A DNA stretch of 64,000 nt from Candidatus Saccharibacteria bacterium UBA5150 (GCA_002413795.1 DHXS01000009.1:7820-71819), one strand, 5' to 3'. Positions 7,414 to 50,087 are shown, counted from the first letter of the stretch. Notes: a model not told the origin generated them from the sequence alone. Made by a program: numbers and translations.

Positions 7414-7418
7414 AAGCG

Positions 7419-7785
7419 GCCAGATTATCTGTAAGCCGGGTTCTGTCGAGCCTGGTCATCTATCTAGGCGGCGCATTACTGCGCAACTCGAGCGGTTTTT
7501 GTGATGGGTCCTTAGCGGGACGCTTTAGGCTTTAGGCCTCAAAGTATCCATCTCCTTGCAGCAGGCAGGGTTTACCTCTTTCCGGCGTCACCGCCGGAAA
7601 CTGCGGGCTTTTACCCCGCTCGTTTCACCCTTACCCATGCACCTTTGTTGATAAAGGTGCTGGGCGGTTTCGTTTCTGTGGCACTTTCCCTGGGGTTGCC
7701 CCCGGTCGCCGTTAGCGACTGCCATTTCCCTTTGCTGCCCGGACTTTCCTCGTGCCGGAGCACGCGACCAGTCAATAATCTGACC
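7419..7785 (-). ncRNA. rnpB: RNase P RNA, bacterial type A
   Basis: The reverse complement contains GAGGAAAGTCCGGGC (7741-7751 region), GCCACAGAAA, GGGTAAGGGTGAAA and ACAGAACCCGGCTTA. A 5'/3' P1 pairing is possible (GGTCAGATTAT / ATAATCTGGCC). Confidence 0.9.
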
Positions 7786-7809
7786 ACTGTTGATTATAGC
7801 ACTTATGGC

Positions 7810-8511
7810 TTAATCTGTCACGTCGGTTTGCTCGGGCACAATGCCCAGCTGTTGGTCCAGCGCGCGGTTGACGGCGGCGTCGGCCAGCTTGTTGAACTCG
7901 CGCGGCACATGGCTAAAGCTGATCTTTTCAAACTTTTCAGCCATTTGCCGGATAGCGTCGTGGATCGGCCAAAGGTCGCGGTTCTTAACTTTAAAGATGC
8001 CTTTCATCTGGTTAACCACCAGCAAGCTGTCCAGGTAGACCTGTACCTCGCGGACGCCCATCTTGAGACATTCTTCGAGGGCCAGTTTCAAGGCCGTGTA
8101 TTCGGCCTGGTTGTTGGTGGTAACGCCCAGGTAAACACCCTTGTCGACCAGTATGGTATCTTCCAGGTCGAGCACCACGAAGCCGCTGGCGCTAGGGCCG
8201 GGGTTGCCGCGCGAGCCGCCGTCGGCAAAGACTTTAACCTTTTCGGGATGCGGCTCAACATCGGCCGCGGCTGGCCGGCCGGCCACCAGCTCGTCAATGG
8301 CCTCGGCCATTTCATAGTCTTTATCGGTGATCTTCTTGCCGCCTTCGTGGGTGATCAGCCAGATCTGCACCACGCTCCACTCGTTTTCCCAGCGCGGGTG
8401 GTGCTGGGCCTCTTCGGCCAGCTCGGCCACCTTGGTCATAAAAGCCCACGCTTCTTTGAAATTTTCGAAGTTAAATTGCTTATAAAGCCCGTGTTTGGTT
8501 TCTTTCCACAT
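7810..8511 (-). CDS. Fusion protein: N-terminal PCD/DCoH-like domain plus C-terminal RNase HI
   Basis: The N-terminal sequence EEAQHHPRWENEWSVVQIWLITHEGG matches the pterin-4a-carbinolamine dehydratase motif. The C-terminal sequence FADGGSRGNPGPSA..AEYTALKLALEE..DSLLVVNQM..NKLADAA shows the RNase H DEDD pattern. Confidence 0.8.
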   Translation of the reverse strand: MWKETKHGLYKQFNFENFKEAWAFMTKVAELAEEAQHHPRWENEWSVVQIWLITHEGGKKITDKDYEMAEAIDELVAGRPAAADVEPHPEKVKVFADGGSRGNPGPSASGFVVLDLEDTILVDKGVYLGVTTNNQAEYTALKLALEECLKMGVREVQVYLDSLLVVNQMKGIFKVKNRDLWPIHDAIRQMAEKFEKISFSHVPREFNKLADAAVNRALDQQLGIVPEQTDVTD

Positions 8512-8672
8512 GCTCTCTATCTTAACATGGTCGGCCTTCAGACCTTACGCTTGAACTTAATCACATTATAATAGCTACTCGCAAGTACAAGCGATTCAAC
8601 AATCAGCTTCGTGATCTGCTGGAAATGCCCGAACGTGATAAGCCGGAGCAACCAGTAATGTTATAATTATAG

Positions 8673-8903
8673 GTGTTATTACAAGGGGTTGCAGCATTGA
8701 GTAATAAAAATAACCATTCCGAACTCACTAGGCTTCTGCTAAAAGCTAAGAAGCAGATTGAGGCTGGCGAAAATACTAGCAAGCGCAGTCAAACCGAGCT
8801 GACGAACGTGAAGCTCGACGAACATACGATTATCGGCAAGGATGGTATTCCGGTCAAAGAAACCGACCAGTCATCTGAAGATAAGACCATCGTTGCTGAA
8901 TAA
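8673..8903 (+). CDS. Hypothetical small protein (island)
   Basis: 76-aa ORF with a GTG start. An alternative TTG start near 8698 follows AAGGGG. No motif recognised. Confidence 0.35.
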   Translation: MLLQGVAALSNKNNHSELTRLLLKAKKQIEAGENTSKRSQTELTNVKLDEHTIIGKDGIPVKETDQSSEDKTIVAE

Positions 8904-8941
8904 CTATAAGCCAGACATAGCTTGAACTATAGAAAGAGACT

Positions 8942-9928
8942 ATGGCACAGCATCATTTTGTACCTCAGACGTACCTTAGAGGATTCGCCACAGACGACGA
9001 CAGTGAGCGTGTTTACTTTTATGATCGACGGATTGCCAACAAGGGTGTTACAAAGCGTCTGATTCAGGACGTGTGCAGCCAGAACAACCTGTATCGTCTA
9101 CTCATGGACGATGGTAAATATAAAGACGACTTGGAGCAAGATTTTGCCACAATAGCCGAACCGACATTTAAGGAAATAGTAGTTAAGCTCCTGGACTGTG
9201 AGCCACTATCACCAGAAGAAAAGAGTGAGTTTGCAGCATATATTAGTCTACAGATAATTAGAACTCCTGCTTCAAGGGAAATGTATAACGCTATGTCTAC
9301 AGAAATCATGAACAGAGCCGCAAACAAACAGTGGGAGAAATTGCTTGATGACCAGGAAAGACAAAGAGTTATGAGTGAGGTGAAAGAAGAAACAGGCTTT
9401 GATACCGGTGTACTGACGAAGGAGGATATTCAAGGCATTATTGATGGCACGAAGTTTAAGACTACGTGGACAATTCCGAAGGAGAACTGGCTCAAGCATA
9501 CGATGGAAACTATGGGTATGATTTTCAGAGCCTTTGAGAGAATGCACTGGCGAGTGTATTTCGCTGCTCCTGGCACGGCTTTCATTACGTCTGATAATCC
9601 AGTATCAGTGCTTGTACCAAAGCCCGATGGATTTTATGTTGGTTCAGGCTTTCTGAACAGAGGTTCGATACGCTTCTTTCCGCTTGCGAAAAACGCCTGT
9701 TTAACGATTACTGATAACGAACCGTCTGGCTTCAGCTTTGCTGATGCTAACAAGCGTCGAGTTCAGCAGATAAATAATGTTACCGCATTGTCGCACCATA
9801 AGATTATAATTAGTCATAGCCCACAGCTACTTGCTCGATGGGTGAAGCGGATTCCTGACGGCTTCAGTCTTACCGAAGCGGTTAAGGATTACCAAGCCCA
9901 AGACATACTCATGGGTAAGTACGATTGA
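8942..9928 (+). CDS. DUF4238-family protein
   Basis: The N-terminus MAQHHFVPQTYLRGF matches the characteristic H-(F/Y)-V-P-Q-x-Y-L-R-x-F start of DUF4238. 328 aa. Confidence 0.7.
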   Translation: MAQHHFVPQTYLRGFATDDDSERVYFYDRRIANKGVTKRLIQDVCSQNNLYRLLMDDGKYKDDLEQDFATIAEPTFKEIVVKLLDCEPLSPEEKSEFAAYISLQIIRTPASREMYNAMSTEIMNRAANKQWEKLLDDQERQRVMSEVKEETGFDTGVLTKEDIQGIIDGTKFKTTWTIPKENWLKHTMETMGMIFRAFERMHWRVYFAAPGTAFITSDNPVSVLVPKPDGFYVGSGFLNRGSIRFFPLAKNACLTITDNEPSGFSFADANKRRVQQINNVTALSHHKIIISHSPQLLARWVKRIPDGFSLTEAVKDYQAQDILMGKYD

Positions 9929-10074
9929 ACAGGTGTTCAGGAAATGTATAGGGTTTTGCTAGTCAATCCCCTAATGATTTAGATTTAAGCAAGTCTGTAA
10001 AGGGTCTAGCGAGGGTAAACGAGGGCGATGGAGATAAGAATAAGGGGTGGAGTGCAAACTGGGGTGGACTACTG

Positions 10075-10584
10075 ATGAAAAGTTCTAGCATAATGCTTGT
10101 CACTGAAGTGCCGGAGATTGATCTGTTTGAGTGCCTGAAATACGACCAAATGCGGAACTTAGGTCAGCTACGAACGTACTTACCGCATCCGTATAAAGGT
10201 TACGTATACATACAGCTTTGCCGGTCAAGAGTACGCTACGGTTGGCGTATCTGGTTTCAAGCTCCCTGCTGTCAACGGCGAACGACCAAGCTGTACATTT
10301 ACGGCACTCGCATTGCTTGCCGACAATGCCTAGACCTGAAATACCCAAGCCAGTACCGAAAAGATGCATTTGGTAGGTCAGGTATGACCCACCGCAAGCT
10401 AGTTCGCTTACAGAAACAAAAACGCCGATTAGGATATGGCGACTACCCGACACGATTCGGGGTTCAGTATAAAAAGCTCATGAACGAGAGTGAGATACAG
10501 ACCATTGAGACGTTTAGCCTTTTACAGCAGAAGCGTATGAAGTTGGATTTCGAACTGGCACGTACCGAACTTGCCGACGGTTAG
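10075..10584 (+). CDS. Hypothetical protein with a putative CxxC..CxxC zinc ribbon
   Basis: 169 aa with PCCQRRTTKLYIYGTRIACRQCLDLKY. Basic and low-GC. Confidence 0.5.
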   Translation: MKSSSIMLVTEVPEIDLFECLKYDQMRNLGQLRTYLPHPYKGYVYIQLCRSRVRYGWRIWFQAPCCQRRTTKLYIYGTRIACRQCLDLKYPSQYRKDAFGRSGMTHRKLVRLQKQKRRLGYGDYPTRFGVQYKKLMNESEIQTIETFSLLQQKRMKLDFELARTELADG

Positions 10585-10699
10585 TTTATTACGTGTTCAC
10601 GAAGCTGTTAAACGTCTCCAGAGGCTTAAACCACTATTCATACCTCTGCACTGATAAAACGCAGTACAGAGAAAATATAGAGTGATAACGAAAAAACAG

Positions 10700-11695
10700 C
10701 TAGGCATTCTTCTTGTGTTTCTTGCCTCGCTTTTTAGCAGGGTCTAATTTGAAGCTGAATGAGCTTTCGCTAACAGTATCAGGTTGAAACGGACTGTCAT
10801 TATTTTTGATAATCTTCAGCAGGTCAAGTTGATCGAATAGCTTCATTTCGTACTCGCCATTACTGTATCGCCAGTTACCGATACCGACGATTTGTTCGAG
10901 CATTGGCGTAAGTATATGAACGAACGCCCATTTCTGTTCCCAGCGAGTGAAAGTGTAGTTTCGTTGCAGTTGCTTGTAGCCAGCGTGGTCTTTATCGCTA
11001 ACGTAGCTCAGAAACACTAGAGCGTCGTCTTTATCGACTTTCATGATCTCACCGAGGCTGAAACCGAACTCGTCGCTGAACATTGCCAGCCCATGCTTGT
11101 AGCTGTTATAGGCATAGCTTTTGAGTAAATCACGCCCGAAGTAATCGAGGAAGACTGATAGATTATCTAGGCTCTTGTCCCAGACCTTTTTTGGCACAGT
11201 CTTTGGCTTATCAGTACGGCTGTAGAAAATCAAGCTCAGGCCAGTCTTGTGATCCACCGTGAAGTATTCCTGTTTGGTAAATGATTCGACGTCGGCCTTA
11301 AACTCCGAAAAGTTGTTGTTAATCGTTAGTTCGACCCAGGGGCAGTCTTTCGCTCGAACGTGAGCGAACATTATGCGGAATAGAGTCTCGATAGCATGAA
11401 AGTACGTTGTGGCGATCTCAGCCTTGAGGTTCTGTTCCAGTTTGTCTGATAGCAATTTAGCATCTTGCTCATCGTCGATTTTGACTCGTAATCGCTTAAA
11501 CGATACGCCCTGCTTGAGAATGTCTGTTGTAGATTTAGGATTGCCAAGCAATGCTAGAAGGTAAAAGCACTTCTGCAAAAAGTATTGAGTGTCGAATGAA
11601 ACGTAAAACTGCTTATTCAGTTTTGCGATTTCGGCAGATACTTTAGGGTCTTGCTTTGTCATTGCTTCAGTTGGCATTTGGTATGATTTTACCAT
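10700..11695 (-). CDS. Hypothetical protein (island cargo, unknown family)
   Basis: 331-aa ORF with a Lys-rich C-terminus, divergent from the 11739 gene. No recognisable motif. Confidence 0.6.
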   Translation of the reverse strand: MVKSYQMPTEAMTKQDPKVSAEIAKLNKQFYVSFDTQYFLQKCFYLLALLGNPKSTTDILKQGVSFKRLRVKIDDEQDAKLLSDKLEQNLKAEIATTYFHAIETLFRIMFAHVRAKDCPWVELTINNNFSEFKADVESFTKQEYFTVDHKTGLSLIFYSRTDKPKTVPKKVWDKSLDNLSVFLDYFGRDLLKSYAYNSYKHGLAMFSDEFGFSLGEIMKVDKDDALVFLSYVSDKDHAGYKQLQRNYTFTRWEQKWAFVHILTPMLEQIVGIGNWRYSNGEYEMKLFDQLDLLKIIKNNDSPFQPDTVSESSFSFKLDPAKKRGKKHKKNA

Positions 11696-11738
11696 TTTTG
11701 ACTTGCCAAAATAAACGACTTATGCTATGATAGCAAAC

Positions 11739-12818
11739 ATGACAGAACAACTACGCCCACAAGAAACCCAAGTATCACCAGAGCAAGTATTACAAGCTGG
11801 TTCTGAGTTCCTACAGCACTTCGGTGTTGAAGTAAGTCCTACTGAGCAACCAGACCAATTTATGGAAGCTATGAAGCAGTTAGACCCTCGTTATGAAGGT
11901 GGTCGTGAGTTGGTTCGCTATGAACTAGCTGAAGACCAGCGTGAATGGCCCGAAGAAACTAAGCAAGTAATTATGAACGGTGCTGAAAGCATGGGAATGC
12001 TGAAGCCCGAAACCCCTCTAGTTGGTGATATTGATGTTGTTATCGCTCTTGGTGGAGCTAACCAGCAAAACCACGAACGCCCTCGTTATGCACTTGAGGC
12101 TATGAAAAAGGGCGAAGCCACATTTAAGCAGTTAGTAATTGCTGGCTCAAGCCGTAAATTAAAAGAAGGCGAACAAAAGAATACTGCAAATTATGCTCCT
12201 GGTGCTGAAACTGAGTTTGACCTTTGTGTCGCTGGCGCAGCCATGCTTGCAAAGGAATATCCAGGTGTTCCAATTAGCGTATTGTTCGTAGATGATGAAA
12301 AAGCTGGCACACCTGACGTTATTGAGGGTGTCTTAGCAGCCGAACAAGCTAACGGTACTCTACAGCCAAACAGTCGTGTTGCTGCGATAACTACTCAAAT
12401 CTACCAAGAATCAACAGAACTTGACCTTGCACGTGTATCAAACAAGTTTGGTATTGCTGAGACTCAAACTGCTGGCATTCCTTCACCTGCTAAAACCATT
12501 GAGGGTCGTACCCCTGCTACTTATAAGAGCGAGATTATACGAACTCTTAAAGCTGCTGCCAATGGAGCAGTAGCTGAAAAAGTTGCAAAAGTTGCTCATG
12601 CTGAAAAAGTCGGTCAAATTGCTACAGCTACGGCGGCTAATCGTGCAGAACAGATAAAAATTGCCAATGCAAATAACGCTAATAACTCAGATATGCTACT
12701 TGATGAGAACGGAGTAGACCAGTGGGGATTTACTCTTGAGGATCATGAAGCTGGAAGATATCGTAGTGGTGGTCTTGTCTACAATGGCTGGAATGACCCA
12801 GGAATGTACGACGAGTAG
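11739..12818 (+). CDS. Hypothetical protein, weak DUF218/YdcF-ElyC-like core
   Basis: The stretch DVVIALGGANQQN..RPRYALEAMKKG..LVIAGSS..AETEFDLCVAGAAMLAKEYPGVP resembles the DUF218 pattern. The track start at 11727 lies inside the -10 element (CTTATGCTATGAT), so ATG 11739 is preferred. Confidence 0.55.
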   Translation: MTEQLRPQETQVSPEQVLQAGSEFLQHFGVEVSPTEQPDQFMEAMKQLDPRYEGGRELVRYELAEDQREWPEETKQVIMNGAESMGMLKPETPLVGDIDVVIALGGANQQNHERPRYALEAMKKGEATFKQLVIAGSSRKLKEGEQKNTANYAPGAETEFDLCVAGAAMLAKEYPGVPISVLFVDDEKAGTPDVIEGVLAAEQANGTLQPNSRVAAITTQIYQESTELDLARVSNKFGIAETQTAGIPSPAKTIEGRTPATYKSEIIRTLKAAANGAVAEKVAKVAHAEKVGQIATATAANRAEQIKIANANNANNSDMLLDENGVDQWGFTLEDHEAGRYRSGGLVYNGWNDPGMYDE

Positions 12819-12909
12819 ATATCCCACAGTGTCCTGTTAGTAAGATGTGTAATATAGTACTGTTTTAACCGATTATTAGTGCTAGTTAAGATGCAAGGAG
12901 ATATAAGTT

Positions 12910-13182
12910 ATGAGCGGAGAAGGCCAACCAAGATTTGATATTGAAGCTGAACGAGCAAGGTATGAAGCTGTGCCAGAGTTTCAAGAACTACAGGCACAAG
13001 TTCCTGACGCTTTAGAAATGGTTACTTCAACTCGTGGTGAAGAAGGTTTACGAGGTCAAGAACTTGCTGATTATTGGGACAATATAGGCAAAGATTCGGG
13101 TGGTTTTTATGATGACATTAGAGAGAATGGCTGCTCAAGCTGTGGCTCTCACACACCTGGCTGTTGCGACGGTTGCGCATAA
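12910..13182 (+). CDS. Small acidic protein with a C-terminal Cys cluster
   Basis: 90 aa. AGGAGA lies upstream. It ends in NGCSSCGSHTPGCCDGCA (6 Cys in the last 16 residues). Confidence 0.5.
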   Translation: MSGEGQPRFDIEAERARYEAVPEFQELQAQVPDALEMVTSTRGEEGLRGQELADYWDNIGKDSGGFYDDIRENGCSSCGSHTPGCCDGCA

Positions 13183-13214
13183 GCTAGTTACATCATCAAT
13201 AAACTAGGCTTATA

Positions 13215-14075
13215 ATGTCTGAAGTGTCTAAAACGCCAGAAAACTCTTACAACCAATTCTTTGAAGAAGCCCTATATCAACCTGTGCCTGACATGGGTGA
13301 ACTACGAGAGCGTAAAAAGGGGTATAACGAGCTGTCTATTGATACGATTAACCCCTTGTTCACTGAGCCTGTCGTTGATATTGCCGACTATGACATCGCT
13401 GGGCAAGCCTACTATTCACGATCTAACGCCACAACAGAAGAGACTGTACTTGGTGTGCCGACTAGCTTATATCTTCGCAAGTCAATAGCTGAGACGTTGG
13501 CTAAGATAAACGCCTCTTTGCAAAATCCTGCTGTTGCGAAGTTCTTTGATGGAGAGGTTGAGCTTTACGTTGAGGATGCTCTGCGACCTGTATCACTGCA
13601 AACACGTCTCCACGATGAGCTTATACCAACACTCCTGCATAAAAATCACCCCGAAATGAGCGATGACGAGATTGCCGATCGTATCAAGGATATTATCGCC
13701 GTACCTTCAACTGACCTGAAAAAGCCTTCACCGCACTCGACTGGCGGTGCTTTGGATATAATCTTGAGGTACAGACAGCCCTTGCCTGGCTATGTTGACG
13801 GAGTTAGTATATCCGTTGGACACGTTGACGGTGAAACCAGTACGAGGATAAATCCTGATTACTTTGAGCAACATGAGCCACAATCTGATGAAGACAAGCT
13901 GGCTCAACGCAACCGCCGTGCTTATTATGCGATTATGACTGGTGCTGCATTTGGTACTGAGACAGGTTTAGTAAATAACCCGACCGAGTGGTGGCATTGG
14001 GGTAGAGGCGACCAGCTTTCCGCAAAGGTACACGGCGATTATACAGCTTACTACTCTCTAGTAGAACCGTCCTGA
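13215..14075 (+). CDS. VanX/DdpX-type D-alanyl-D-alanine dipeptidase (peptidase M15D)
   Basis: SPHSTGGALD matches SxHxxGxAxD, and EWWHW is also present. 286 aa. Confidence 0.8.
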   Translation: MSEVSKTPENSYNQFFEEALYQPVPDMGELRERKKGYNELSIDTINPLFTEPVVDIADYDIAGQAYYSRSNATTEETVLGVPTSLYLRKSIAETLAKINASLQNPAVAKFFDGEVELYVEDALRPVSLQTRLHDELIPTLLHKNHPEMSDDEIADRIKDIIAVPSTDLKKPSPHSTGGALDIILRYRQPLPGYVDGVSISVGHVDGETSTRINPDYFEQHEPQSDEDKLAQRNRRAYYAIMTGAAFGTETGLVNNPTEWWHWGRGDQLSAKVHGDYTAYYSLVEPS

Positions 14076-14263
14076 CCTACCGTCCAGCTTTATCACTAGT
14101 GTACTTGTACTTGTTATCAGGTAGAGCTGGCAAGAAAACGGAATCAAAAGCAGTAGAAGCCTGATACGCACATTTTATTAACCGCTAAAATTAGTTCAGC
14201 TTGCCGATCATATTGTAGTTAGTTATTGTGGTAAAAAACTTTTGTTTACCCATGTTAAAAACA

Positions 14264-14291
14264 TTGACATCAGTGTGGTCAAAGTTACAAT
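14264..14291 (+). promoter_or_regulatory. Near-consensus sigma70 promoter
   Basis: TTGACA (14264-14269), a 16-nt spacer, TACAAT (14286-14291). AGGAGG (14315-14320) precedes GTG 14326. Confidence 0.5.
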
Positions 14292-14325
14292 AATACATAC
14301 ACACACTAAATAGCAGGAGGCAACC

Positions 14326-15282
14326 GTGCAGCAAAAAATGTTAAAAAATGAGGTAAAGGCTCTAGTGCCATTTTCACCGTCATTGTTAAAGTCAGCAATT
14401 CAGAAGTCAGTACGGAGAGGCGACGTAGACAAGGCAGTCAGGACAGCCAAGAGTCTTATCCAATTAAACGAAGTCGATGCGTTGCGTAGGCTCATGATAA
14501 TCCCAGTGGAAGACTGTATATTGCCACCGGATTACGATAAATACGCAGCCATGCTTACTAAGGTTAGCGCAAAAGGCAGCCAGCCATTGACTGAAGATGA
14601 AAAGACTTCGGCACTTTCAATAATTGGAGACGTAGCCTGGTGTGAATGGCGTGACCTGGATGTTGGCAATCTGGATGATGAGGGCAAAGATTACGCTATG
14701 CAACCAGTTCAAGGCAATAAAGAGAACGATCTGGTAAACGCCCTGCTCTACAGGGCTAGAGCTGGTGGCTCTCGGTGGGATGTGCCAATGTTAAATCAGA
14801 TGGCTAGAGTGTGGAACAAACGGTTCGCTGAAAAGAGTTGGGATATTGAAAAAATGAAGTCGTATTTTACTGGCAAAGTCATCAACTGGAACGATGTTCC
14901 TTACGCAACCGTAGACGACATCATGCTTGAAGCGGTAGATTTTCACTGCAGTGGCATACTGTACACTCTTTTGAAGATAGATTGGATAAAAGACCTATTG
15001 AGAAAAGAGATACCGTTTAATAAAAGGAATTGGTTAGGCTCTGATATGAGCTACGTTAATCTGTTAGAACAGATAATGTGGACTACCAGATCGAGCATCA
15101 ATTACAAGAAAAATATATGGGAAACTCAGGTTGGCAAAGACCAGCCGGTTAGTTGGCTGTGGGCTGATAACGTACCGGAAGCAATGTGGCCGGTGTATGA
15201 GCATATAACAGAGGCGATACGTGAAGAAACAGATAACATCAGTCGATGGATTATTCGCACACAAGGTGAAAAGGTGTTATGA
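14326..15282 (+). CDS. Hypothetical protein; the N-terminus weakly resembles the MgsA/RarA C-terminal helical domain
   Basis: 318 aa. SLLKSAIQKSVRRGDVDKAVRTAKSLI..ALRRLMIIPVEDCILP resembles the RarA lid region. Its stop overlaps the integrase start (ATGA). Confidence 0.6.
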   Translation: MQQKMLKNEVKALVPFSPSLLKSAIQKSVRRGDVDKAVRTAKSLIQLNEVDALRRLMIIPVEDCILPPDYDKYAAMLTKVSAKGSQPLTEDEKTSALSIIGDVAWCEWRDLDVGNLDDEGKDYAMQPVQGNKENDLVNALLYRARAGGSRWDVPMLNQMARVWNKRFAEKSWDIEKMKSYFTGKVINWNDVPYATVDDIMLEAVDFHCSGILYTLLKIDWIKDLLRKEIPFNKRNWLGSDMSYVNLLEQIMWTTRSSINYKKNIWETQVGKDQPVSWLWADNVPEAMWPVYEHITEAIREETDNISRWIIRTQGEKVL

Positions 15283-16169
15283 CCACTGACTTAGTGTCGA
15301 TGCCAAAACGCAACGTAGATGACATCATCGGTGCGTTAGATGTCAGCCAGAACACCAGGGATGAATACAAGAACCGAATCAAGCCATTCCTGGCGTTCGT
15401 GCAAGCCGAAGGTTTGTCGCTGAACGTGCTACTGGAATACAAACGAACTCTGAGCGCTCGTGAGGATTATAGCGTGTCTACTCGCAACAAATACCTGGCA
15501 ACAGCTAGGGTGTTTATGAAAGAATGCTATTGCCTCGGCATTGTGGATCGTGATGTAACGTCAAATGTACGGAGCTTCAAGCAAGACCGGCAACATAAGG
15601 TCACCGGCCTGACTAATGAGGAGGTGTTGCTAATCTGTGTGTGGCTTCGTCAGAACCCTGAAAAGCTGCGTGAACGTGCATTACTCTGTCTACTGCTGTT
15701 CCAGGGGCTGAGACAGGCCGAAATCTGCAATATAAGGCTCAGGGACGTTGATCTGAAAGAAGGTACAATGTTTATACTCGGTAAGGGTCGGGATGACTAT
15801 GAACGAGTACATCTGCACCCGAACACCACTAGAGCGTTGAGACGCTTTTGCCGAAGCCTCAAGTTACAATCCGGTGATTACTTGTTCACTAGCAAACGAA
15901 GGCAAAGCAAAGCCGTGAAGCTCACTACCAGAGGTTTGCAAGGTATTGTTAAGGGGGTTTTTGAGGAATTAGGTATTGACCGAACCGTTCATGGTTGCCG
16001 TCATTTCCATGCCTCAAAGCTCATACAAGCTATGCCAGGCGAATTATCAGTGGTTGCCCGATTTACTAGGCATAGAAGCCTCGAAACTCTCAGAATATAC
16101 GATGATAACCGGCTAATGCTAAGGGACGTTGAACACTACCGGAGAGCCTTCAGTGATCTCAAAATATAG
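15279..16169 (+). CDS. Tyrosine recombinase / phage-type integrase
   Basis: The catalytic pattern is present: GLRQAE (R), HGCRHFHAS (HxxR), RHRSLETLRIYDD (H..Y). Confidence 0.85.
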   Translation: MTTDLVSMPKRNVDDIIGALDVSQNTRDEYKNRIKPFLAFVQAEGLSLNVLLEYKRTLSAREDYSVSTRNKYLATARVFMKECYCLGIVDRDVTSNVRSFKQDRQHKVTGLTNEEVLLICVWLRQNPEKLRERALLCLLLFQGLRQAEICNIRLRDVDLKEGTMFILGKGRDDYERVHLHPNTTRALRRFCRSLKLQSGDYLFTSKRRQSKAVKLTTRGLQGIVKGVFEELGIDRTVHGCRHFHASKLIQAMPGELSVVARFTRHRSLETLRIYDDNRLMLRDVEHYRRAFSDLKI

Positions 16170-16264
16170 CCACTTATTTCGCATAATACTCATTACACGA
16201 AATAACCTGAATCTTTTTACCAGCACTGTTTTACAGCTATAATTAAGGTAATTGGAGGCAACCA

Positions 16265-17971
16265 GTGGACGACGGCAACAAAGCTAAAGATTATATTATT
16301 CAGACTATTCGGGACATGATAGGTGAAGACCAGGATGAAATCGCCTTCTCGGAACTTAAATACGTGCTGTACGCTCGTAAATCTACAACCGGCAAGAATA
16401 AGAAGAACCGTGAACGCCAAGAACAGTCGATTCCTTCACAGATTAAAGCCTGTAAAGAAGCTGCTATGCGTGACCCAAAAATCCATATTGCAAAGATCAT
16501 CATCGAGAAACGCTCTGCCAAAGAGCCTGGCATCAGGAAAAAGTTCAACAAAATTATCGACCAGATTAAAGTTGGCACTTATGATGGCATAATTACGTAC
16601 GCCCCTGATCGTCTCGCCAGAAACATGAAGGAAGGAGGTGAAATTATAGATATGCTCGACCGGCGTGAGATTAAAGACCTCAGGTTCGCCACATACAGTT
16701 TCGAGAACACTCCGATGGGTAAGATGCTACTTGGCGTGTCATTCGTATTGTCTAAGCAGTATTCCGACCATCTGAGCGTTGTGGTAAAGCGTGGCAACAA
16801 AGATGCAATAGAGGTAGCCAACTTTATCGGTAAGTTTAAGCATGGGTACTACAAGAATAAGGATGGCCGGCTTTATCCTGACATGACTAACGGTAATTGG
16901 GAGCTTATAAAAAACGTGTTCGATATGCGTCTGAATGATAACGCAACAGGTACTGAGCTGGCTAAGTACCTGAACAGGAACGGTTATGAAATCCACCGAG
17001 CTGATGGGAGACATAAGTACATATTTACCGACAAACGTGTGTCAGAGATGCTGCGTGACCCATTTTACGCCGGTATTCTGGTTTACGGTTCTCAGATCAT
17101 AGATTTGCAGGAGGTTTACGATTTCACGCCCATAATTGAGCCTGACGATTTTCTGAAGATCAATAAGGCTGACAGTTTCCTAAACACTAACTTCCGATTG
17201 GCTCGGAAAGCTCTAACACCGGTGGGAGTTAGTGCTAACATGATGAACGGCATGATTATCTGTAACGACTGTAAAGAGCCGATGTCTGCCGGTATAATGA
17301 AGAAGTACCAGGGTTCTGGCGACAGTAAAAGGCTCATCGAACTTCGACTGTTGTACCGTTGCGATACAGAAGACTGCAGGTTCTTTAACAAGTCGTGCCG
17401 AGCCAAGTATGTTACTGACTTCATTTATGATTTTCTGGACAAGCACAAGTTTACCAGCAGAGAGGAATATGAGCATTACCTGGAAGATATGACCGAGGAA
17501 GTCGAGCGCAAGACAGCAGATATTACGCAGGAAATAAGATCGCTCATACGCCAGCGAACTGAAAAAGATAAAGATTACAAAAATACCAAAGCTCTGCTTA
17601 GAGAGGAGCCGGAGGAAGCTAAGCACTTTAAGGACGACTTGGATGAGCTGAAGGCAGACCTAAAGTCTATTAACGATGATATTGATACTAACGAGAAGCT
17701 GAAAGTCGAGCTGAGCGATACAAAGCTCAATTATGAGGAATATCTTGAACTTTTTGGAAAAGTGACCGATCTACTCAAGAAAACTTACTATATTGATGAC
17801 AAGGATGCGATTATCCGAAAGTTCTACTTGAACTTCACGGTTCAGGGCGAAATGCAGCCGAGCGGAAAGCAAGTAAAACAGTGGTCAGTAGTCGATTATG
17901 AGCTTGCTGAACCATTCGCTACATTCGTAAAAACCCATAATTCCCTGTCTGGTCGGGGTGACAGGACTTGA
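16265..17971 (+). CDS. Large serine recombinase
   Basis: YARKSTTGK and DRLARN match the resolvase domain. A recombinase domain, a Cys-rich zinc ribbon (CNDCKE..CDTEDC) and a coiled coil follow. The stop TGA 17969-17971 lies inside tRNA-Pro. Confidence 0.9.
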   Translation: MDDGNKAKDYIIQTIRDMIGEDQDEIAFSELKYVLYARKSTTGKNKKNRERQEQSIPSQIKACKEAAMRDPKIHIAKIIIEKRSAKEPGIRKKFNKIIDQIKVGTYDGIITYAPDRLARNMKEGGEIIDMLDRREIKDLRFATYSFENTPMGKMLLGVSFVLSKQYSDHLSVVVKRGNKDAIEVANFIGKFKHGYYKNKDGRLYPDMTNGNWELIKNVFDMRLNDNATGTELAKYLNRNGYEIHRADGRHKYIFTDKRVSEMLRDPFYAGILVYGSQIIDLQEVYDFTPIIEPDDFLKINKADSFLNTNFRLARKALTPVGVSANMMNGMIICNDCKEPMSAGIMKKYQGSGDSKRLIELRLLYRCDTEDCRFFNKSCRAKYVTDFIYDFLDKHKFTSREEYEHYLEDMTEEVERKTADITQEIRSLIRQRTEKDKDYKNTKALLREEPEEAKHFKDDLDELKADLKSINDDIDTNEKLKVELSDTKLNYEEYLELFGKVTDLLKKTYYIDDKDAIIRKFYLNFTVQGEMQPSGKQVKQWSVVDYELAEPFATFVKTHNSLSGRGDRT

Positions 17972-18025
17972 ACCTGCGACCTCACGGCCCCCAGCCGTAC
18001 GCGCTACCAACTGCGCCACACCCCG
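17950..18025 (-). tRNA. tRNA-Pro (anticodon GGG), CCA encoded
   Basis: The reverse complement folds as a cloverleaf: acceptor CGGGGTG/CACCCCG, anticodon loop CTGGGGG, T-loop TTCAAGT. 76 nt. Confidence 0.9.
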
Positions 18026-18046: not shown

Positions 18047-18189
18047 GTCGGGCACCGGGTTTGATCACCTGAGGGATCCCAGGTGGGTGCCCGCACGTCC
18101 CGACCACGGTCGGCACAAATATTGGACTCCCTAATGATTAATATCAGATAATCATTCGCCCGGCGGGGGCTTATTAGGCCCTGCCCGAC
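18047..18189. ncRNA. Structured intergenic element, candidate ncRNA (class and strand unknown)
   Basis: Closing helix GTCGGGCA (18047-18054) / TGCCCGAC (18182-18189). Internal hairpins: 18066-18085 (6 bp), 18133-18156 (8 bp), 18158-18170 (4 bp) and 18087-18116. Confidence 0.35.
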
Positions 18190-46634: not shown

Positions 46635-49600
46635 TCATAAGACCGGGGATAAGCTAGTGATCGAGTCGTAGACGCCGGCCGTCGGGCCGGAGTTCTTATT
46701 TATGGCCGGCTGGGCCAGGTAAATCGCCGGATTAAAGTTAAAGATTTCGCCGGCGCAGTCACCCAGGCTGGTCGTGGTGCTCAGCCCTGCGCCCTCGGTG
46801 CCCTTACTGCAGTCACGGTTGCCCGGAGTCTGGACGTTTTCACCATCCACACTGAACCTTAGCGAGCCGAAGGTACGGTCCAGGTGGACTTTATTGGCTA
46901 TGAAGGCCCCGTTCACCAGTAGCTGGCGGTGACAGGTGCTGTATTTACTGCCGTTATCGAAGCGGCCATTGGCCGAGGCACACGAATCAATATTGCCGCC
47001 ACTGCCGCTAGACGGCTGGGCTACCAGAATGGCATCCAGCCGGCTGACCGCCGGGTCAATGTAGATGTTGCCGCCCTTGGCAATAATGTACACCGAAGGT
47101 ATATCACCGGTTTTAGTCCACGAGCTGTTCTGGAAAACAATGTCGGAGGTTATGTAGGCATTGCCCTTCACGTAAATGGCAATCGCCTTGCCGTCGGCAA
47201 TCAGGCCGCCGTTAATCTTCTGGGACGTGCTGGCCGGCGGCTGGTAATAGGAGGCTTTGTCCAAAGAACTCACGTTAATATCGGCCCCGGACGTGTTTGG
47301 TGTAGCCAGGCTGGCCGGTTTGGTGGCAAAGTAATCCGATATGCAGTGCGTGCCGCCCAGCAGGCCGCCATTATTGGGGGCCGGCAGGCTACTGCCGCTA
47401 ATCCCCTTGGTATTGGAGAACGTTAGCCCTATCGGCGCCAGCGCAAATGGATTGGGATCGGTCGGTTTCTGGGTCCGCAGGTTGGCACTGCTAAAGCCCA
47501 GAATCTGGTTAATCGACAAGGCCCCAAACTGCGTGCCGGAGCCCCGCTTCTTACCATCATAGGTATAGGTGTAAATACTGCCATCGCTGGTACAGGTGCT
47601 ATCCGCGAAACTGCCTCCCGCCGACACATCACTGCCAAAGGCATGGGTGTACGGCTCGTTGACAATGTTCGACGAACAAACTTCCGGCGCGCCGTAGCTG
47701 CCACTCTGTGAGACGTGCACGATGCGACCGTCATAATTATCAACCAGTCCGGTCAGCCAAGATGCCGTCAGATCCATACATATACGGTCGCCTATTCTAA
47801 GCGGCGGAACGCTAACACTTGCCGAATCGGTAGCTTGCGTGCTGGTATTGCCGGATGCCGGTAAAGCAGGTGGAATAACCGTCCCGCCGCCGGATGACTT
47901 GCTATAAAGCGAAACTGCCGAGCCATCTACGCTACGCACAAGGTAGTTGGCCGCCCAATCCATCTCGCGCTGAATAGGCACCCGTACCGGTGCGTTCGGA
48001 TCGGGCGGCGTCCACGGCAAATATCCAGGCTTAGGCGACTCCAGACCATAATTAATGGCTAGGGTGCTGGAGAAATTAACGGTATTGGGATCCTCATTAC
48101 TAGGACTCAACAGGACGTTATTGCCATGCGTACCGCCGGTATCCATATTAAAATTGCGGTTGTAGCACGGGGACAGGTCCTTGGGATGATATATGAACGG
48201 CAAGCCCTGGTTGGGAGTAATGCCGGTAAGGCTCCATGAACCGCCCGTAACATTACCTTCGGCATCGTAAGTGGCGTTATATACCGCATCCCAGCGATAG
48301 TAATATTCGGTGTAGTAGATGGACATGTGGTGCATGTCGTACGGATACTGCTCTATGAAGTCCGTATAGTCCGCCGAAAATGGATTAGGATGCTGCCCTT
48401 TCGGACTCCATTTATCAGACGTTTGCCCAAATTGATCGTAAAAGGCATCTATCTCGTAATTACCGTTTGGTATATAAGCAGTCGCGGTTTGTCCATCGCT
48501 TGGATTGCCCGGCAAGCCGCCTTGTACACCGCTATCGGGTAGATTGAATGCATAGTTGGGATCGGGCATGCTGGGACAACCGATTCCCTGACAACCTGGT
48601 TGCCCTGGTGTGCACGATCCACCACAGGGTATGGTGCCTACATCTCCCGAATCTTGATAGGGGGGCCAAGTAGCCGGATTACTAGGATCACCGCCATTAT
48701 GATAATGCCGCTCTATTACCCAATGCAGGTCGCCCTTGGCATTATAGTTCCAGGTTTTACTGACGCCTTGTCCTAAATGGTATTTATATGCAATGAAGCC
48801 ATTAGCATCGGCGATTGACACATAAGTATTGGTGCTATAGGTTTTCCCGTTAACTGTGTGTGTGCGATCATCGGTGACTGTCATTTGATAACAACCTGGG
48901 GTAGGTCCACCGCAACTTGCTTTCGCAGTATATGGTGGTCCCGTACTCGTTGGAGGTTGCCATTGACCGTTATCATCTTGTAATATCAAATAATAATTTT
49001 TGCCACTTATGCCGTTTGGTATAGTGCCAGAGGCATAGCCAGCCTTGTTAGTGGAACTGTCAACGTCTGTACTGAAGCCGTTGCGAGATGAATTTTGATG
49101 AACAATTTTAAATCGCGTCGGTAAACCAGGATCGTCAGCATCGGATCCGGCGACAATGTAATCAATTTGACCCCCATTGCATTGGAGATTGATACTACCT
49201 TGCGGGTTGCTATTTTTCACCGTGAAGCACTGGGGTTTTGACTGCTTTACGACGTGCGAAGCAACGACATTTTCCTCGTGAGGGTTCCAGCCATTAGGAT
49301 CGTAGTCTGGGAAGTATTTAATATTGCGCGTAAACCTTACTGACACATTCAGCCTGGCACAAAAACCCCCTTCCACTGACTTAGGTAAGTTCAAGTCAAA
49401 AGAATAACCATTGGAGCTATTTGTAGCATTTTCCCAATAAACCATCTGGCCCTGTTTAAGGCAGTCCTCTACTCCATTGACATGGTCGTTTGGATTGTAT
49501 GCTATCGGGCTTGAATTGTCTCCGTTTTTTATTTTCGAATCATCATAACTGGACCCAGTACCGATATCTCTATAGTTATAGACTGTGCCGAAGGTTTTGT

Positions 49601-50087
49601 TTCCGTCTCCTGGGCAAGTAGAGGCATGCCCATGATCTGAGCCCCCTGGCTCATTTATATGCTGAATATTGTTAAAGTTTTGCGGCTCTTGACTGCCATT
49701 AGGCGAGCCCAAAAGTTGGGGTTCACCGTCTATGGTAACCCATACTAGTACTTCTGTATTCTGTCGATTATTATTTTTAGGCCCACCAGTAGTCGAATTA
49801 TATCCTCCTGTAAAATGTATAGTGCTACCAATATTACGAATAGTCTGGCCATATGCGGTTCCGTACTTACCACTATCTTGATCTTGACCAACTAAGTTAA
49901 TATTATCTGTGTATGCGGGATCGGATCCGCACAAAAAACTGTAAGGGAAGTTGTCAACGTCATTTGGCTTTGAGCCTCCCTGACAAACAGACCCAAACCC
50001 ACGAGTTGCGTATGTAGTGCTATGGCTTAAAGAAAAAAGGCCAAGGAGCGCAAGTAAACCAACCACCACCAAATATATTTTTTTCAT
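46635..50087 (-). CDS. Large secreted protein of unknown function, upstream of the pilus operon
   Basis: 1150-aa ORF with signal peptide MKKIYLVVVGLLALLGLFSLSHSTTYA. Rich in G/N/P/Y/S. No prepilin motif. Confidence 0.8.
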   Translation of the reverse strand: MKKIYLVVVGLLALLGLFSLSHSTTYATRGFGSVCQGGSKPNDVDNFPYSFLCGSDPAYTDNINLVGQDQDSGKYGTAYGQTIRNIGSTIHFTGGYNSTTGGPKNNNRQNTEVLVWVTIDGEPQLLGSPNGSQEPQNFNNIQHINEPGGSDHGHASTCPGDGNKTFGTVYNYRDIGTGSSYDDSKIKNGDNSSPIAYNPNDHVNGVEDCLKQGQMVYWENATNSSNGYSFDLNLPKSVEGGFCARLNVSVRFTRNIKYFPDYDPNGWNPHEENVVASHVVKQSKPQCFTVKNSNPQGSINLQCNGGQIDYIVAGSDADDPGLPTRFKIVHQNSSRNGFSTDVDSSTNKAGYASGTIPNGISGKNYYLILQDDNGQWQPPTSTGPPYTAKASCGGPTPGCYQMTVTDDRTHTVNGKTYSTNTYVSIADANGFIAYKYHLGQGVSKTWNYNAKGDLHWVIERHYHNGGDPSNPATWPPYQDSGDVGTIPCGGSCTPGQPGCQGIGCPSMPDPNYAFNLPDSGVQGGLPGNPSDGQTATAYIPNGNYEIDAFYDQFGQTSDKWSPKGQHPNPFSADYTDFIEQYPYDMHHMSIYYTEYYYRWDAVYNATYDAEGNVTGGSWSLTGITPNQGLPFIYHPKDLSPCYNRNFNMDTGGTHGNNVLLSPSNEDPNTVNFSSTLAINYGLESPKPGYLPWTPPDPNAPVRVPIQREMDWAANYLVRSVDGSAVSLYSKSSGGGTVIPPALPASGNTSTQATDSASVSVPPLRIGDRICMDLTASWLTGLVDNYDGRIVHVSQSGSYGAPEVCSSNIVNEPYTHAFGSDVSAGGSFADSTCTSDGSIYTYTYDGKKRGSGTQFGALSINQILGFSSANLRTQKPTDPNPFALAPIGLTFSNTKGISGSSLPAPNNGGLLGGTHCISDYFATKPASLATPNTSGADINVSSLDKASYYQPPASTSQKINGGLIADGKAIAIYVKGNAYITSDIVFQNSSWTKTGDIPSVYIIAKGGNIYIDPAVSRLDAILVAQPSSGSGGNIDSCASANGRFDNGSKYSTCHRQLLVNGAFIANKVHLDRTFGSLRFSVDGENVQTPGNRDCSKGTEGAGLSTTTSLGDCAGEIFNFNPAIYLAQPAINKNSGPTAGVYDSITSLSPVL

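What the first reader, a model, noticed from the sequence alone, without database searches (positions are those of the whole stretch)
8528..17971. A ~9.4-kb low-GC integrative island at tRNA-Pro(GGG) carries two unrelated recombinases and non-housekeeping cargo
Seen: hand-counted 60-nt lines give ~63-65% GC in the flanks (8221, 18301) but ~40-47% inside the block (9061, 10801). The drop begins right after the start of the RNase H fusion gene (8511) and ends at tRNA-Pro (17950-18025, minus strand). A tyrosine recombinase (15279-16169) and a large serine recombinase (16265-17971) lie against the tRNA. Eight further ORFs have no housekeeping signature. TGGTCGG, which is the tRNA 3' end read on the plus strand, occurs at 17950-17956 and again at 8528-8534. 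At the second site it is followed by a degenerate look-alike (CAGACCTT..CTTGAAC versus CAGGACTTGAAC), which may be a decayed att repeat. There are no capsid, terminase or conjugation genes. Inference: this is a compact integrative element or genomic island rather than a prophage. Mobile elements in small-genome episymbiont-like bacteria are poorly catalogued, and the cargo is mostly unknown.
Basis: partly seen in the sequence, partly recalled or inferred. Interest (0 to 1): 0.75.

Follow-up and report, generated by a model that had tools for sequence, protein, structure and literature searches.

The report
Serine-integrase island in tRNA-Pro, split integrase gene
A 9.4-kb mobile island sits in the last bases of a proline tRNA gene of a soil Saccharibacteria genome; it was most likely inserted by a large serine integrase whose recombination site appears to lie inside its own gene, so insertion detaches the enzyme's C-terminal tail, a layout not found in the literature searched for this enzyme class.

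Summary
Window 8528-17956 is a 9.4-kb block of 44% GC in a 54% GC Saccharimonadales genome (tetranucleotide z about 20), bounded by TGGTCGG at both ends, one copy being the 3' end of tRNA-Pro(GGG). Removing it restores the empty site seen in relatives, and a related island shares homology starting exactly at 8528.

The integrase is the large serine recombinase (LSR), not the tyrosine recombinase. At least seven other islands at this tRNA carry LSR homologues whose reading frame runs into the antisense tRNA, as do at least 97 of the 120 closest homologues. More distant members sit on tRNA-Met and tRNA-Val.

It lies 5 bp further from the core on the island arm than on the tRNA arm, the published attP/attB rule.

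The recombination core lies inside the LSR gene, about 43 codons before the stop, so integration moves the tail to the far end (8535-8666). This is solid for the family. For the window it rests on position, reading frame and motif, not on tail homology.

No excised form was found. Cargo: DUF4238 defence candidate, VanX-like peptidase, a recurrent Xer-like recombinase, and unknowns.

The parts
8512..8527 (-). Displaced host flank: promoter-like TGTTAAGATAGAGAGC immediately upstream of the Pterin_4a-RNase H fusion gene (7810-8511). In empty-site relatives it directly follows the tRNA 3' end.
   Evidence: L075 reads ...CCCCGACCA|TGCTAAGATATAGAGC|ATG and the window reads CCGACCA|TGTTAAGATAGAGAGC|ATG
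8528..8534 (+). Far-end copy of the att core TGGTCGG, which is the displaced last 7 nt (CCGACCA) of tRNA-Pro. This is the left island boundary.
   Evidence: homology with L104/L105/L106 begins exactly at 8528
8535..8666 (+). Detached 'tail exon' of the LSR: 43 codons plus a stop, in frame after the core-encoded Gly-Arg. It would be fused to the LSR body in the circular form, giving a 607-aa protein.
   Evidence: It is 98% conserved at protein level in L104, with 3 of 4 substitutions synonymous. Its homology to other tails is NOT significant.
8551..8556 (+). TTGAAC motif of the P' arm. GAAC lies at +20 to +23 after GGTCG and is invariant in all 11 family junctions compared (10 independent; L104 duplicates the window).
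   Evidence: interpretation from PMC3783163
8697..8903 (+). Small acidic ORF (68 aa) immediately downstream of the tail, co-conserved with it in L104. It is a speculative candidate for a directionality factor or regulator.
8942..9928 (+). DUF4238 protein (anti-phage defence candidate)
   Evidence: Pfam 2e-39; PADLOC DUF4238-Pers 2e-13
10075..10584 (+). 169-aa Cys-rich basic protein of unknown function, shared with L083 and L104
   Evidence: dN/dS 0.16
10700..11695 (-). 331-aa protein of unknown function, absent from sister island L083
11727..12818 (+). 363-aa member of a Patescibacteria-restricted family. It has a Rossmann-like core with a weak YdcF/DUF218-like structural match.
12910..13182 (+). 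90-aa protein with a Cys-rich C-terminus (CSSCGSHTPGCCDGCA), under strong purifying selection
   Evidence: dN/dS 0.05
13215..14075 (+). VanX-like D-Ala-D-Ala dipeptidase (Peptidase_M15)
14326..15282 (+). 318-aa protein overlapping the YR start codon by 4 nt, with a weak RarA/MgsA C-terminal-like motif
   Evidence: dN/dS 0.18
15279..16169 (+). Xer-like tyrosine recombinase. It is not the integrase for this site, and it recurs beside LSRs of this family.
16265..17956 (+). LSR body (Resolvase + Recombinase + zinc ribbon with coiled coil). As integrated, the ORF continues to 17971 across antisense tRNA sequence (…SGR|GDRT*).
17950..17956 (+). Near-end copy of the att core TGGTCGG, which is the tRNA 3' terminal CCGACCA. 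This is the right island boundary.
17950..18025 (-). tRNA-Pro(GGG), intact. It carries the attB B arm with TTGAAC (T-loop, antisense) at 17968-17973, 5 bp closer to the core than in the P' arm.

Best explanation
Window 8528-17956 is an integrative genomic island (9,422 bp of inserted DNA) in a Saccharimonadales chromosome. It was inserted by its own large serine recombinase through attP x attB recombination.

Sites. attB is the 3' end of tRNA-Pro(GGG) plus the downstream promoter region of the RNase H fusion gene. The crossover lies within the terminal ...CGACCA-3' (TGGTCG on the + strand). The tRNA is regenerated, and only a 7-nt copy of its end is displaced 9.4 kb away.

Split gene. attP lies inside the 3' part of the LSR gene. 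The Gly-Arg codons GGT-CGN are the core, and they sit in a flexible linker between the folded enzyme and a C-terminal helix of roughly 30 residues. Integration therefore splits the gene. The body (16265-17956) stays beside the tRNA and terminates on antisense tRNA sequence. The 43-codon tail (8535-8666) ends up at the opposite end. Excision would rebuild a 607-aa protein.

Recognition. The zinc-ribbon domain probably reads the GAAC motif. This motif is the tRNA T-loop in attB, and it is placed 5 bp further out in attP.

Shown: the insertion, its exact ends, the LSR-tRNA association, the motif geometry, and the split layout in the family.

Inferred: that the window's own 8535-8666 segment is the tail (about 0.7), that the truncated enzyme is still active, and that the element still moves.

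The cargo is accessory: a DUF4238 defence candidate, a cell-wall-type trio, and unknowns. The Xer-like tyrosine recombinase is an associated module of unknown role; resolving multimers of the circular form is my guess.
For: Insertion. The order S2P-like gene, tRNA-Pro, RNase H gene is conserved in 53-60 of 80 relatives, with an interval from 0.1 to 7 kb, against 9.7 kb here. In L075, L074, L065 and L060 the tRNA end abuts the RNase H promoter. Deleting 8535-17956 recreates that site with 2 mismatches in the 16-nt spacer.

Boundaries and composition. L104 homology starts exactly at 8528. Compositional z = 20.5.

Transfer. Sister island L083 lies at the same tRNA in a host whose flanks are 66-76% identical in nucleotides, while the recombinase module is 83.5% identical. 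Recombination-module dS is 0.65-1.0, against 1.07 for L28 and 2.8 to saturated for the other flank genes.

LSR as integrase. LSR homologues or their 3' remnants abut the tRNA 3' end in L022, L046, L048, L067, L071, L036 and L057, always on the 3' side whichever way the tRNA points; L044's contig ends before the tRNA. At least 97 of the 120 closest homologues end in antisense tRNA-Pro translation. More distant members overlap tRNA-Met and tRNA-Val.

att geometry. TGGTCG is invariant in the nine reconstructed attP sites. GAAC lies at +20-23 in all 11 P' arms compared and at +15-18 in the tRNA arm. This matches the 5-bp shift of the zinc-ribbon motif between attP and attB (PMC3783163).

Split gene. 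Six unsplit homologues carry tails of 42-50 aa after the Gly-Arg. The three examined at DNA level have TGGTCG at those codons. Far-end in-frame tails occur in L044 (E = 1e-6 against unsplit tails), L048, L067, L071, L022 and L046. The AlphaFold model puts Gly558-Arg559 in a linker with pLDDT below 50, before a separate helix. Foldseek's top hits are large serine integrases, E = 1e-18.
Against: The window's own tail is not detected by either tail profile. Its pairwise similarity to known tails is only suggestive (shuffle p = 0.04-0.07, rank 3-4 of 1493 segments).

No circular-junction sequence was found in viral or JGI metagenome contigs, and no 607-aa protein exists in the protein collection, so current mobility is unproven.

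The unsplit homologues sit in contigs that look chromosomal or belong to larger elements, not in obvious small circles.

Dyad symmetry of the reconstructed attP is weak (best 0.35 against 0.25 random), so the crossover dinucleotide cannot be named. The P-arm (G/A)TTC motif could simply be a conserved Phe codon.

The window's B' arm (RNase H promoter) shows no matching motif.
Confidence: 0.8

Rival explanations
1. A classical tRNA island: the tyrosine recombinase (15279-16169) is the integrase, and the LSR is cargo or serves another function such as inversion or resolution.
For: A Phage_integrase-family gene is present near the tRNA end. tRNA genes are the classic targets of tyrosine integrases, and serine integrases were stated not to be known to target tRNA genes (PMC4383910).
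Against: Only 7 nt are duplicated, which is far shorter than the tRNA fragments typical of tyrosine-integrase islands. None of the 80 related loci has a YR homologue, yet seven or more have LSRs or LSR remnants at the same tRNA end. The LSR ORF crosses the junction in frame across the whole family. The GAAC spacing follows the LSR attP/attB rule. The YR is Xer-like rather than phage-Int-like.
Confidence: 0.04
2. LSR-mediated island, but without a functional split gene in this element. The open frame at 8535-8666 is just the P' arm of attP plus incidental open sequence, and the window LSR's natural C-terminus lies at or near the core.
For: The window tail is not significantly similar to any other tail by profile or by shuffle test. 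A 43-codon open frame has roughly an 8% chance in DNA of this composition (my estimate). The GAAC motif alone would be conserved as a DNA site whether or not it is translated.
Against: Unsplit relatives always continue 42-50 codons past the core. All seven other islands examined have an in-frame ORF of 41-55 codons after the far-end core. The window tail length (43) falls in that range, and it has Glu at tail position 7 like all the others. In L104 the tail is 98% identical in protein, with 3 of 4 nucleotide changes synonymous. P0321's unsplit tail (DNDIFLELFNHL...) resembles the window's (PSDLTLELNHII...) by eye.
Confidence: 0.2
3. A fossil island: integrated by the LSR in the past but now fixed and immobile. 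The GC contrast simply reflects its foreign origin.
For: No circular junction or empty-site sequence of this species was recovered. The same island is 100% identical in two samples. The hotspot in relatives is full of decayed remnants.
Against: All ORFs are intact and under purifying selection, including both recombinases (dN/dS 0.06-0.07). Both att arms keep the invariant core and GAAC. The GC is not ameliorated. A related left end occurs in a different flank (L104).
Confidence: 0.3
4. A degraded prophage or phage satellite.
For: PHROGs integrase families match both recombinases, and DUF4238 matches a phage-derived family.
Against: No capsid, terminase, portal, tail, lysis, replication or packaging family matches any of the 10 ORFs. 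There are no relatives in IMG/VR. The size is 9.4 kb.
Confidence: 0.04

Closest known systems
Phage and mobile-element large serine integrases (PhiC31, Bxb1, A118/LI, SPbeta)
   Same: It has Resolvase + Recombinase + zinc ribbon/coiled-coil architecture. attP and attB share only a short core. The same distal motif sits about 5 bp closer to the centre in attB than in attP.
   Different: The target is the 3'-CCA end of a tRNA gene, whereas those integrases target protein-coding or intergenic sites. attP lies inside the integrase's own coding sequence. Sequence similarity to solved LSRs is limited to the catalytic domain. The family appears centred on Patescibacteria.
SSV-family 'suicidal' tyrosine integrases of archaeal viruses and plasmids (PMC7253208)
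   Same: attP lies within the integrase ORF, integration into a tRNA gene partitions the integrase gene, and target tRNAs switch across the family.
   Different: It belongs to an unrelated enzyme class (serine, not tyrosine) and occurs in bacteria, not archaea. Only a ~43-aa C-terminal helix beyond a flexible linker is detached, so the enzyme body stays intact and is probably not inactivated.
Islander-type tRNA genomic islands
   Same: The island lies between an intact tRNA gene and a displaced copy of its 3' end, the integrase gene is at the tRNA-proximal end, and the cargo is accessory.
   Different: The displaced fragment is only 7 nt, and the enzyme is a serine recombinase. [quoted passage not shown]
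Tycheposons of Prochlorococcus (bioRxiv 10.1101/2020.12.28.424599)
   Same: They are small cargo-carrying islands accreting at a few tRNA genes in a streamlined genome. A minority (27 of 937) carry an LSR.
   Different: They are overwhelmingly tyrosine-recombinase elements with replication modules. No intragenic attP is described in the text I read.
Mycobacteriophage integration-dependent immunity (attP inside the repressor gene; from my own knowledge, Broussard et al. 2013, not checked here)
   Same: Integration changes the C-terminus of a phage protein because attP is intragenic.
   Different: There the affected gene is the repressor and the integrase is a tyrosine recombinase. Here it is the integrase itself.

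Membership tests
Large serine recombinase (serine integrase) | N-terminal resolvase catalytic domain with the catalytic Ser | tested here: met
   PF00239, 5e-18, residues 34-180; motif YARKST; PDB match 3g13
Large serine recombinase (serine integrase) | Recombinase domain followed by a zinc ribbon with an inserted coiled coil | tested here: met
   PF07508, 2e-10. The Cys pairs CNDC...CDTEDC are visible in the sequence. The AlphaFold model of the 46%-identical relative P0003 shows RD, ZD and a long coiled coil. Foldseek's top hits are full-length serine integrases, E = 1e-18.
Large serine recombinase (serine integrase) | attP and attB share only a short core, with the ZD motif shifted about 5 bp toward the centre in attB | tested here: met
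   The core is TGGTCG(G). GAAC lies at +20-23 in the P' arm and at +15-18 in the tRNA B arm, which matches the rule from PMC3783163. This was seen on one arm pair only. The other arms are inconclusive.
Large serine recombinase (serine integrase) | Catalyses attP x attB recombination with a 2-bp staggered cut | not testable with these tools
   This needs a recombination assay. The dyad symmetry is too weak to name the dinucleotide.
tRNA-targeting genomic island (Islander definition) | An intact tDNA plus a displaced tDNA fragment flanking an integrase-bearing island | tested here: met
   tRNA-Pro at 17950-18025 and a 7-nt fragment at 8528-8534; the fragment is unusually short.
tRNA-targeting genomic island (Islander definition) | The integrase is of the tyrosine recombinase family | tested here: not met
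   A YR is present, but the evidence points to the LSR as the integrase.
SSV-type split ('suicidal') integrase | attP lies inside the integrase ORF, so the gene is partitioned on integration | tested here: met
   Family level. For the window it is inferred from frame, position and motif, not from tail homology.
SSV-type split ('suicidal') integrase | Tyrosine recombinase of the SSV family; integration yields two inactive pseudogenes | tested here: not met
   The enzyme is a serine recombinase. The body keeps all folded domains, and only a post-linker helix is removed.
Prophage | Capsid, terminase, portal or tail genes | tested here: not met
   None found in the Pfam, PHROGs or NCBIfam scans of all 10 ORFs.
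ICE / IME | Relaxase, coupling protein or type IV secretion genes | tested here: not met
   No such Pfam or NCBIfam family was matched. An oriT was not searched for.

The most novel reading that the evidence does not exclude
A large LSR family (847 representative clusters at E <= 1e-30), apparently Patescibacteria-centred, integrates at the 3'-CCA end of tRNA genes. It uses the T-loop as its zinc-ribbon-domain motif and carries attP within its own coding sequence. Integration and excision would then toggle the enzyme between a full-length form and a tail-less form. On this reading the detachable C-terminal helix is a built-in state sensor or directionality control, acting for example on the coiled coil or on a partner such as the small acidic ORF or the Xer-like recombinase. 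Because the tRNA-Pro target is 100% identical across many Saccharimonadales genera, the system would be a natural broad-range integration tool for uncultivated or hard-to-engineer CPR bacteria.
Probability: 0.3. Interest if true: 0.8.

Novelty: new variant of a known kind. Interest (0 to 1): 0.62.

Why it matters
Textbook practice, and tools such as Islander, treat tRNA-gene integration as the province of tyrosine integrases. The large LSR survey I read (PMC10083194) does not mention tRNA at all.

Here a very large LSR family is dedicated to tRNA 3' ends. Its att sites can be read straight from genomes. The T-loop serves as the attB motif, with the expected 5-bp attP/attB offset.

The intragenic attP is a bacterial, serine-recombinase counterpart of the archaeal 'suicidal' SSV integrases. 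It raises a testable question: does swapping the C-terminal tail control directionality?

On the practical side, LSRs need no host factors, and this attB is invariant across many Saccharibacteria genera (23 loci with an identical 76-nt tRNA). The pair could therefore serve as a genetic tool for CPR bacteria.

It also shows that this tRNA-Pro locus is a recurrent accretion hotspot for accessory genes in small episymbiont genomes.

Tried and rejected
1. Exact search for the predicted circular junction (CCCTGTCTGGTCGGCCTTCAGACC) in IMG/VR and JGI metagenome contigs found nothing. The reconstructed 607-aa protein is not in the 15-billion-protein collection.
2. The search for related loci with the LSR returned only distant resolvase-domain hits in metagenome contigs and nothing in viral contigs.
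3. Two tail profiles, built from P0003/P0035/P0115 (with or without L044) and from P0057/P0060/L048/L067, both failed to detect the window tail. A shuffle test was only borderline.
4. A profile of unsplit LSRs searched against 1.84 billion representatives found no hit extending through the tail. It yielded only 1-3 further unsplit forms.
5. The extended 'decayed repeat' as a nucleotide alignment is not better than shuffles. Generic repeat finding gave only chance-level repeats, including a 9-nt inverted repeat flanking o14326-YR that I dismissed as expected by chance.
6. A dyad-symmetry scan of the reconstructed attP was too weak to name the crossover dinucleotide.
7. The structure search for o11727 gave only a weak YdcF-like match. 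The SRP54 hits were rejected because their rmsd is 13-14 A.
8. PDB sequence searches for o11727 and o10700 found nothing. For o14326 there was only a weak RarA-C-like motif.
9. L104's different left flank (a 304-aa ORF) matches nothing, so I could not tell whether it is a second integration site or a tandem neighbour.
10. The promoter/terminator scan at the left end was uninformative.

Full report
**1. The observation**

The block is real. GC in 500-nt windows falls from 0.57 to 0.43 at about 8500 and rises from 0.45 to 0.55 at about 18000. Overall the island is 44.3% GC and the rest of the window is 54.3%. Its tetranucleotide distance from the rest is 0.394, against 0.110 +/- 0.014 for 46 host windows of equal size (z = 20.5). 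GC3 is 0.26-0.54 inside and 0.64-0.79 in flanking genes.

ARAGORN and Rfam place tRNA-Pro(GGG) at 17950-18025 on the minus strand. TGGTCGG occurs at 8528 and at 17950. However, it also occurs 13 times on the + strand of the window, and the extended look-alike scores no better than shuffles. Sequence inspection alone therefore could not settle the ends.

**2. Host and empty sites**

The flanking Pterin_4a-RNase H fusion gene (7810-8511) retrieved 80 Saccharimonadales (Saccharibacteria/TM7) loci, at most 81% identical in protein. The following gene order is conserved in 53-60 of them:
- miaA-like gene
- g19711
- metallo-beta-lactamase-fold gene
- M50 (S2P-like) peptidase gene
- tRNA-Pro(GGG)
- RNase H fusion gene
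- L20
- IF3

The interval between the peptidase and the RNase H gene ranges from 0.1 kb to 7 kb, and the window's 9.7 kb is the largest.

In L075, L074, L065 and L060 the tRNA 3' end CCGACCA runs directly into a conserved TGnTAAGAT...ATG motif upstream of the RNase H gene. The window has CCGACCA|TGTTAAGATAGAGAGC|ATG at 8534-8509, with no tRNA attached. Deleting 8535-17956 in silico gives ...GTCACCCCGACCATGTTAAGATAGAGAGCATG, against L075's ...GTCACCCCGACCATGCTAAGATATAGAGCATG. So the 7-mer at 8528-8534 is the displaced end of the tRNA, and the inserted DNA is 9,422 bp.

**3. Independent boundary and horizontal transfer**

A search with the 45-aa peptide encoded just after the left core found one protein (P0126), present in three contigs. 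Their homology with the window starts exactly at 8528 and runs for 403 nt at 94.5% identity. The other flank is unrelated, and the cargo further in differs.

The LSR's closest relative (P0002, 90% identical) lies in a sister island, L083. That island has the same layout and sits at the same tRNA in a different soil Saccharimonadales genome. The recombinase module is 83.5% identical in nucleotides, whereas the host flanks are 66-76% identical. The module's dS is 0.65-1.0, against 1.07 for L28 and 2.8 to saturated for the other host genes. All island genes have dN/dS of 0.05-0.18. The islands therefore share a more recent ancestor than their hosts do, and their genes are functional.

**4. Which recombinase did it**

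Six other loci have LSR homologues (31-44% identical) in the same interval: L022, L044, L046 (remnant), L048, L067 and L071. L036 and L057 have LSR 3' remnants. The island is always on the 3' side of the tRNA, whichever way the tRNA points, and the LSR reading frame runs into the antisense tRNA wherever the contig reaches it. None of the 80 loci has a homologue of the tyrosine recombinase.

Of the 120 closest LSR homologues in the protein collection, at least 97 end in GRGDRT*, GRGERTRTFDLTVPNRAR... or similar, which is the antisense translation of tRNA-Pro. More distant members overlap tRNA-Met(CAT) by 38 nt and tRNA-Val(GAC) by 22 nt in the same convergent geometry. The family is large: 2033 hits at E <= 1e-10 among the scored candidates, and 847 clusters at E <= 1e-30 in the representative library. 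Where a source names the organism, it is a Patescibacteria group.

**5. att-site anatomy**

I aligned the near junctions, the far junctions and three unsplit genes. TGGTCG is invariant in the nine reconstructed attP sites. On the island (P') side, GAAC lies at exactly +20 to +23 after GGTCG in all 11 junctions compared (10 independent, since L104 duplicates the window), within otherwise divergent sequence. On the tRNA (B) side the same TTGAAC, the antisense T-loop, lies at +13 to +18, which is 5 bp closer.

Invariant synonymous positions (GGT for Gly, GAA for Glu) show that the constraint acts on the DNA.

Overall dyad symmetry is weak, so I do not name the crossover dinucleotide.

**6. The split gene**

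In the integrated state the LSR ORF ends ...NSLSGR|GDRT*. The last residues are tRNA-encoded, and they differ in L083 because its tRNA differs. Reading across the predicted circular junction, the frame stays open for 43 more codons (8535-8663, stop 8664-8666), giving a 607-aa protein.

Six of the 120 homologues are 589-614 aa long and diverge from the tRNA-type ending exactly after Gly-Arg, into tails of 42-50 aa. The three I could read as DNA have TGGTCG at those codons and no tRNA nearby.

A profile of three such tails finds a far-end segment in L044 (E = 1e-6). That segment is preceded in frame by TGGTCG and lies on the LSR strand next to the RNase H gene. L048, L067, L071, L022 and L046 each have a far-end GGTCG followed in frame by 41-55 codons. 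L048 and L067 resemble the unsplit tails of P0057 and P0060, and L022 resembles L071.

An AlphaFold model of the unsplit relative P0003 (mean pLDDT 85) shows this order of elements:
- catalytic domain
- αE helix
- recombinase domain
- zinc ribbon with a long coiled coil
- a post-coiled-coil unit
- a low-confidence linker (556-566) containing Gly558-Arg559
- a separate helix at 566-596

Foldseek's best matches are full-length serine integrases on att DNA (E = 1e-18). The split therefore removes a helix beyond a flexible linker and does not cut a domain.

Caveat: the window's own tail is not recovered by either tail profile, and it is only borderline in a shuffle test. Four things support it:
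- its position and reading frame
- its length
- the invariant GAAC and the Glu at tail position 7
- 98% protein conservation in L104, with 3 of 4 substitutions synonymous

I put the split-gene reading for this particular element at about 0.7, and the LSR-mediated integration at above 0.9.

**7. Activity**

I found no excised form. Intact ORFs, strong purifying selection and intact att arms argue against an old fossil. Mobility today remains an inference.

**8. Cargo and the second recombinase**

The cargo is as follows:
- DUF4238 (Pfam 2e-39; PADLOC 'DUF4238-Pers' 2e-13).
- A trio shared with L083. It consists of o11727, the 90-aa Cys-rich protein (dN/dS 0.05), and a VanX-like M15 dipeptidase. 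o11727 belongs to a Patescibacteria-restricted family, has a model with pLDDT 92.8, and gives only a weak YdcF-like match.
- o10075, o10700 and o8673, which have no matches.
- o14326, which overlaps the YR start and has a weak RarA-C-like motif.

The YR is Xer-like. It is 91% identical in L083, and 50% identical to a YR sitting two genes upstream of a ~40%-related LSR in L108. The YR-LSR pairing therefore recurs. Its role is unknown.

A small acidic ORF follows the tail in several islands. These ORFs are mutually similar in L044, L099 and L103, but the window's is not similar to them. I flag it only as a candidate directionality factor.

**9. The hotspot**

The interval in relatives holds PIN/MazE/Phd toxin-antitoxin genes, RND transporters, transposases, an L,D-transpeptidase, patatin, LSRs and, in some lineages, queA. 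Extra tRNA fragments and second tail remnants indicate tandem accretion and decay.

**10. Literature**

- The LSR survey of Durrant et al. never mentions tRNA.
- Tycheposons include a minority of LSR elements at tRNA-linked islands.
- The closest analogue for an intragenic attP is the archaeal SSV-family tyrosine integrase (PMC7253208).

Nine full-text searches found no description of LSRs with an intragenic attP at tRNA genes, or of such islands in CPR bacteria. That library is incomplete, so the novelty claim is provisional.

**Verdict**

The finding is correct as an island call, and it turned out more interesting than stated. It is a new variant of known kinds: an LSR integrase with tRNA targeting and an SSV-like split gene.

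Noticed in passing
L001-L080 (interval between the S2P-like gene and the RNase H gene); window 17950-18025: The tRNA-Pro(GGG) gene points toward the RNase H gene in 31 related loci and away from it in 32. It flips even among the closest relatives (L001 against L002). L076 (flipped) still has ...GACCA|TGGTAAGAT next to the RNase H promoter, which hints that the inversion breakpoint coincides with the LSR crossover site.
   Followed up: partly
L048:5400, L044:3795, L067:9866-9994, L060/L079/L055: Extra tRNA-Pro fragments are present: 19-21 nt of the 3' end lie 170-190 nt outside the current island's tail core, and there are copies of the 5' half (positions 1-37). L067 also has a second tail-like remnant. 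Together these suggest tandem accretion and decay of islands at this hotspot, possibly involving a second kind of integrase.
   Followed up: partly
window 46635-51622: A second low-GC patch (0.42-0.47 at about 48.5-51.5 kb) covers part of a 1150-aa ORF with no Pfam match, a 208-aa unknown ORF, and a PIN/MazE-like toxin-antitoxin pair (50838-51209 and 51206-51622, minus strand). It may be another acquired segment.
   Followed up: partly
window 12910-13182: A 90-aa ORF ending in CSSCGSHTPGCCDGCA is 90% conserved with L083, with dN/dS 0.05. It sits between a YdcF-like protein and a VanX-like peptidase. It could be a metal-binding protein or a modified-peptide precursor. No family matched.
   Followed up: partly
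window 7416-7783 (minus) and 18067-18149 (minus): RNase P RNA (Rfam RF00010, 242 bits) lies immediately downstream of the RNase H fusion gene, so the 308-aa ORF at 7645-8571 (+) is spurious. A sub-threshold 6S-like hit (25 bits, E = 0.075) lies just upstream of tRNA-Pro, in a region conserved with L083.
   Followed up: no
L099, L100, L101, L102, L103, L084: The unsplit LSR genes sit in contigs with ClpB, TatC, sortase, Fic, a second 648-aa serine recombinase and HTH_17/MerR-like genes, with no tRNA nearby. It is unclear whether these are plasmids, larger composite elements, or chromosomal sites where the LSR is carried passively.
   Followed up: partly
L104:1-1123 (also L105, L106): A near-identical left end of the island (core, tail and small ORF) abuts a completely different flank encoding a 304-aa protein with no homologues in any fetched locus and no Pfam match. 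This is either a second integration site or a neighbouring island.
   Followed up: partly
window 7810-8511: The flanking host gene is a fusion of pterin-4a-carbinolamine dehydratase (Pterin_4a) with RNase H (RVT_3). It is conserved across all 80 Saccharimonadales loci.
   Followed up: no
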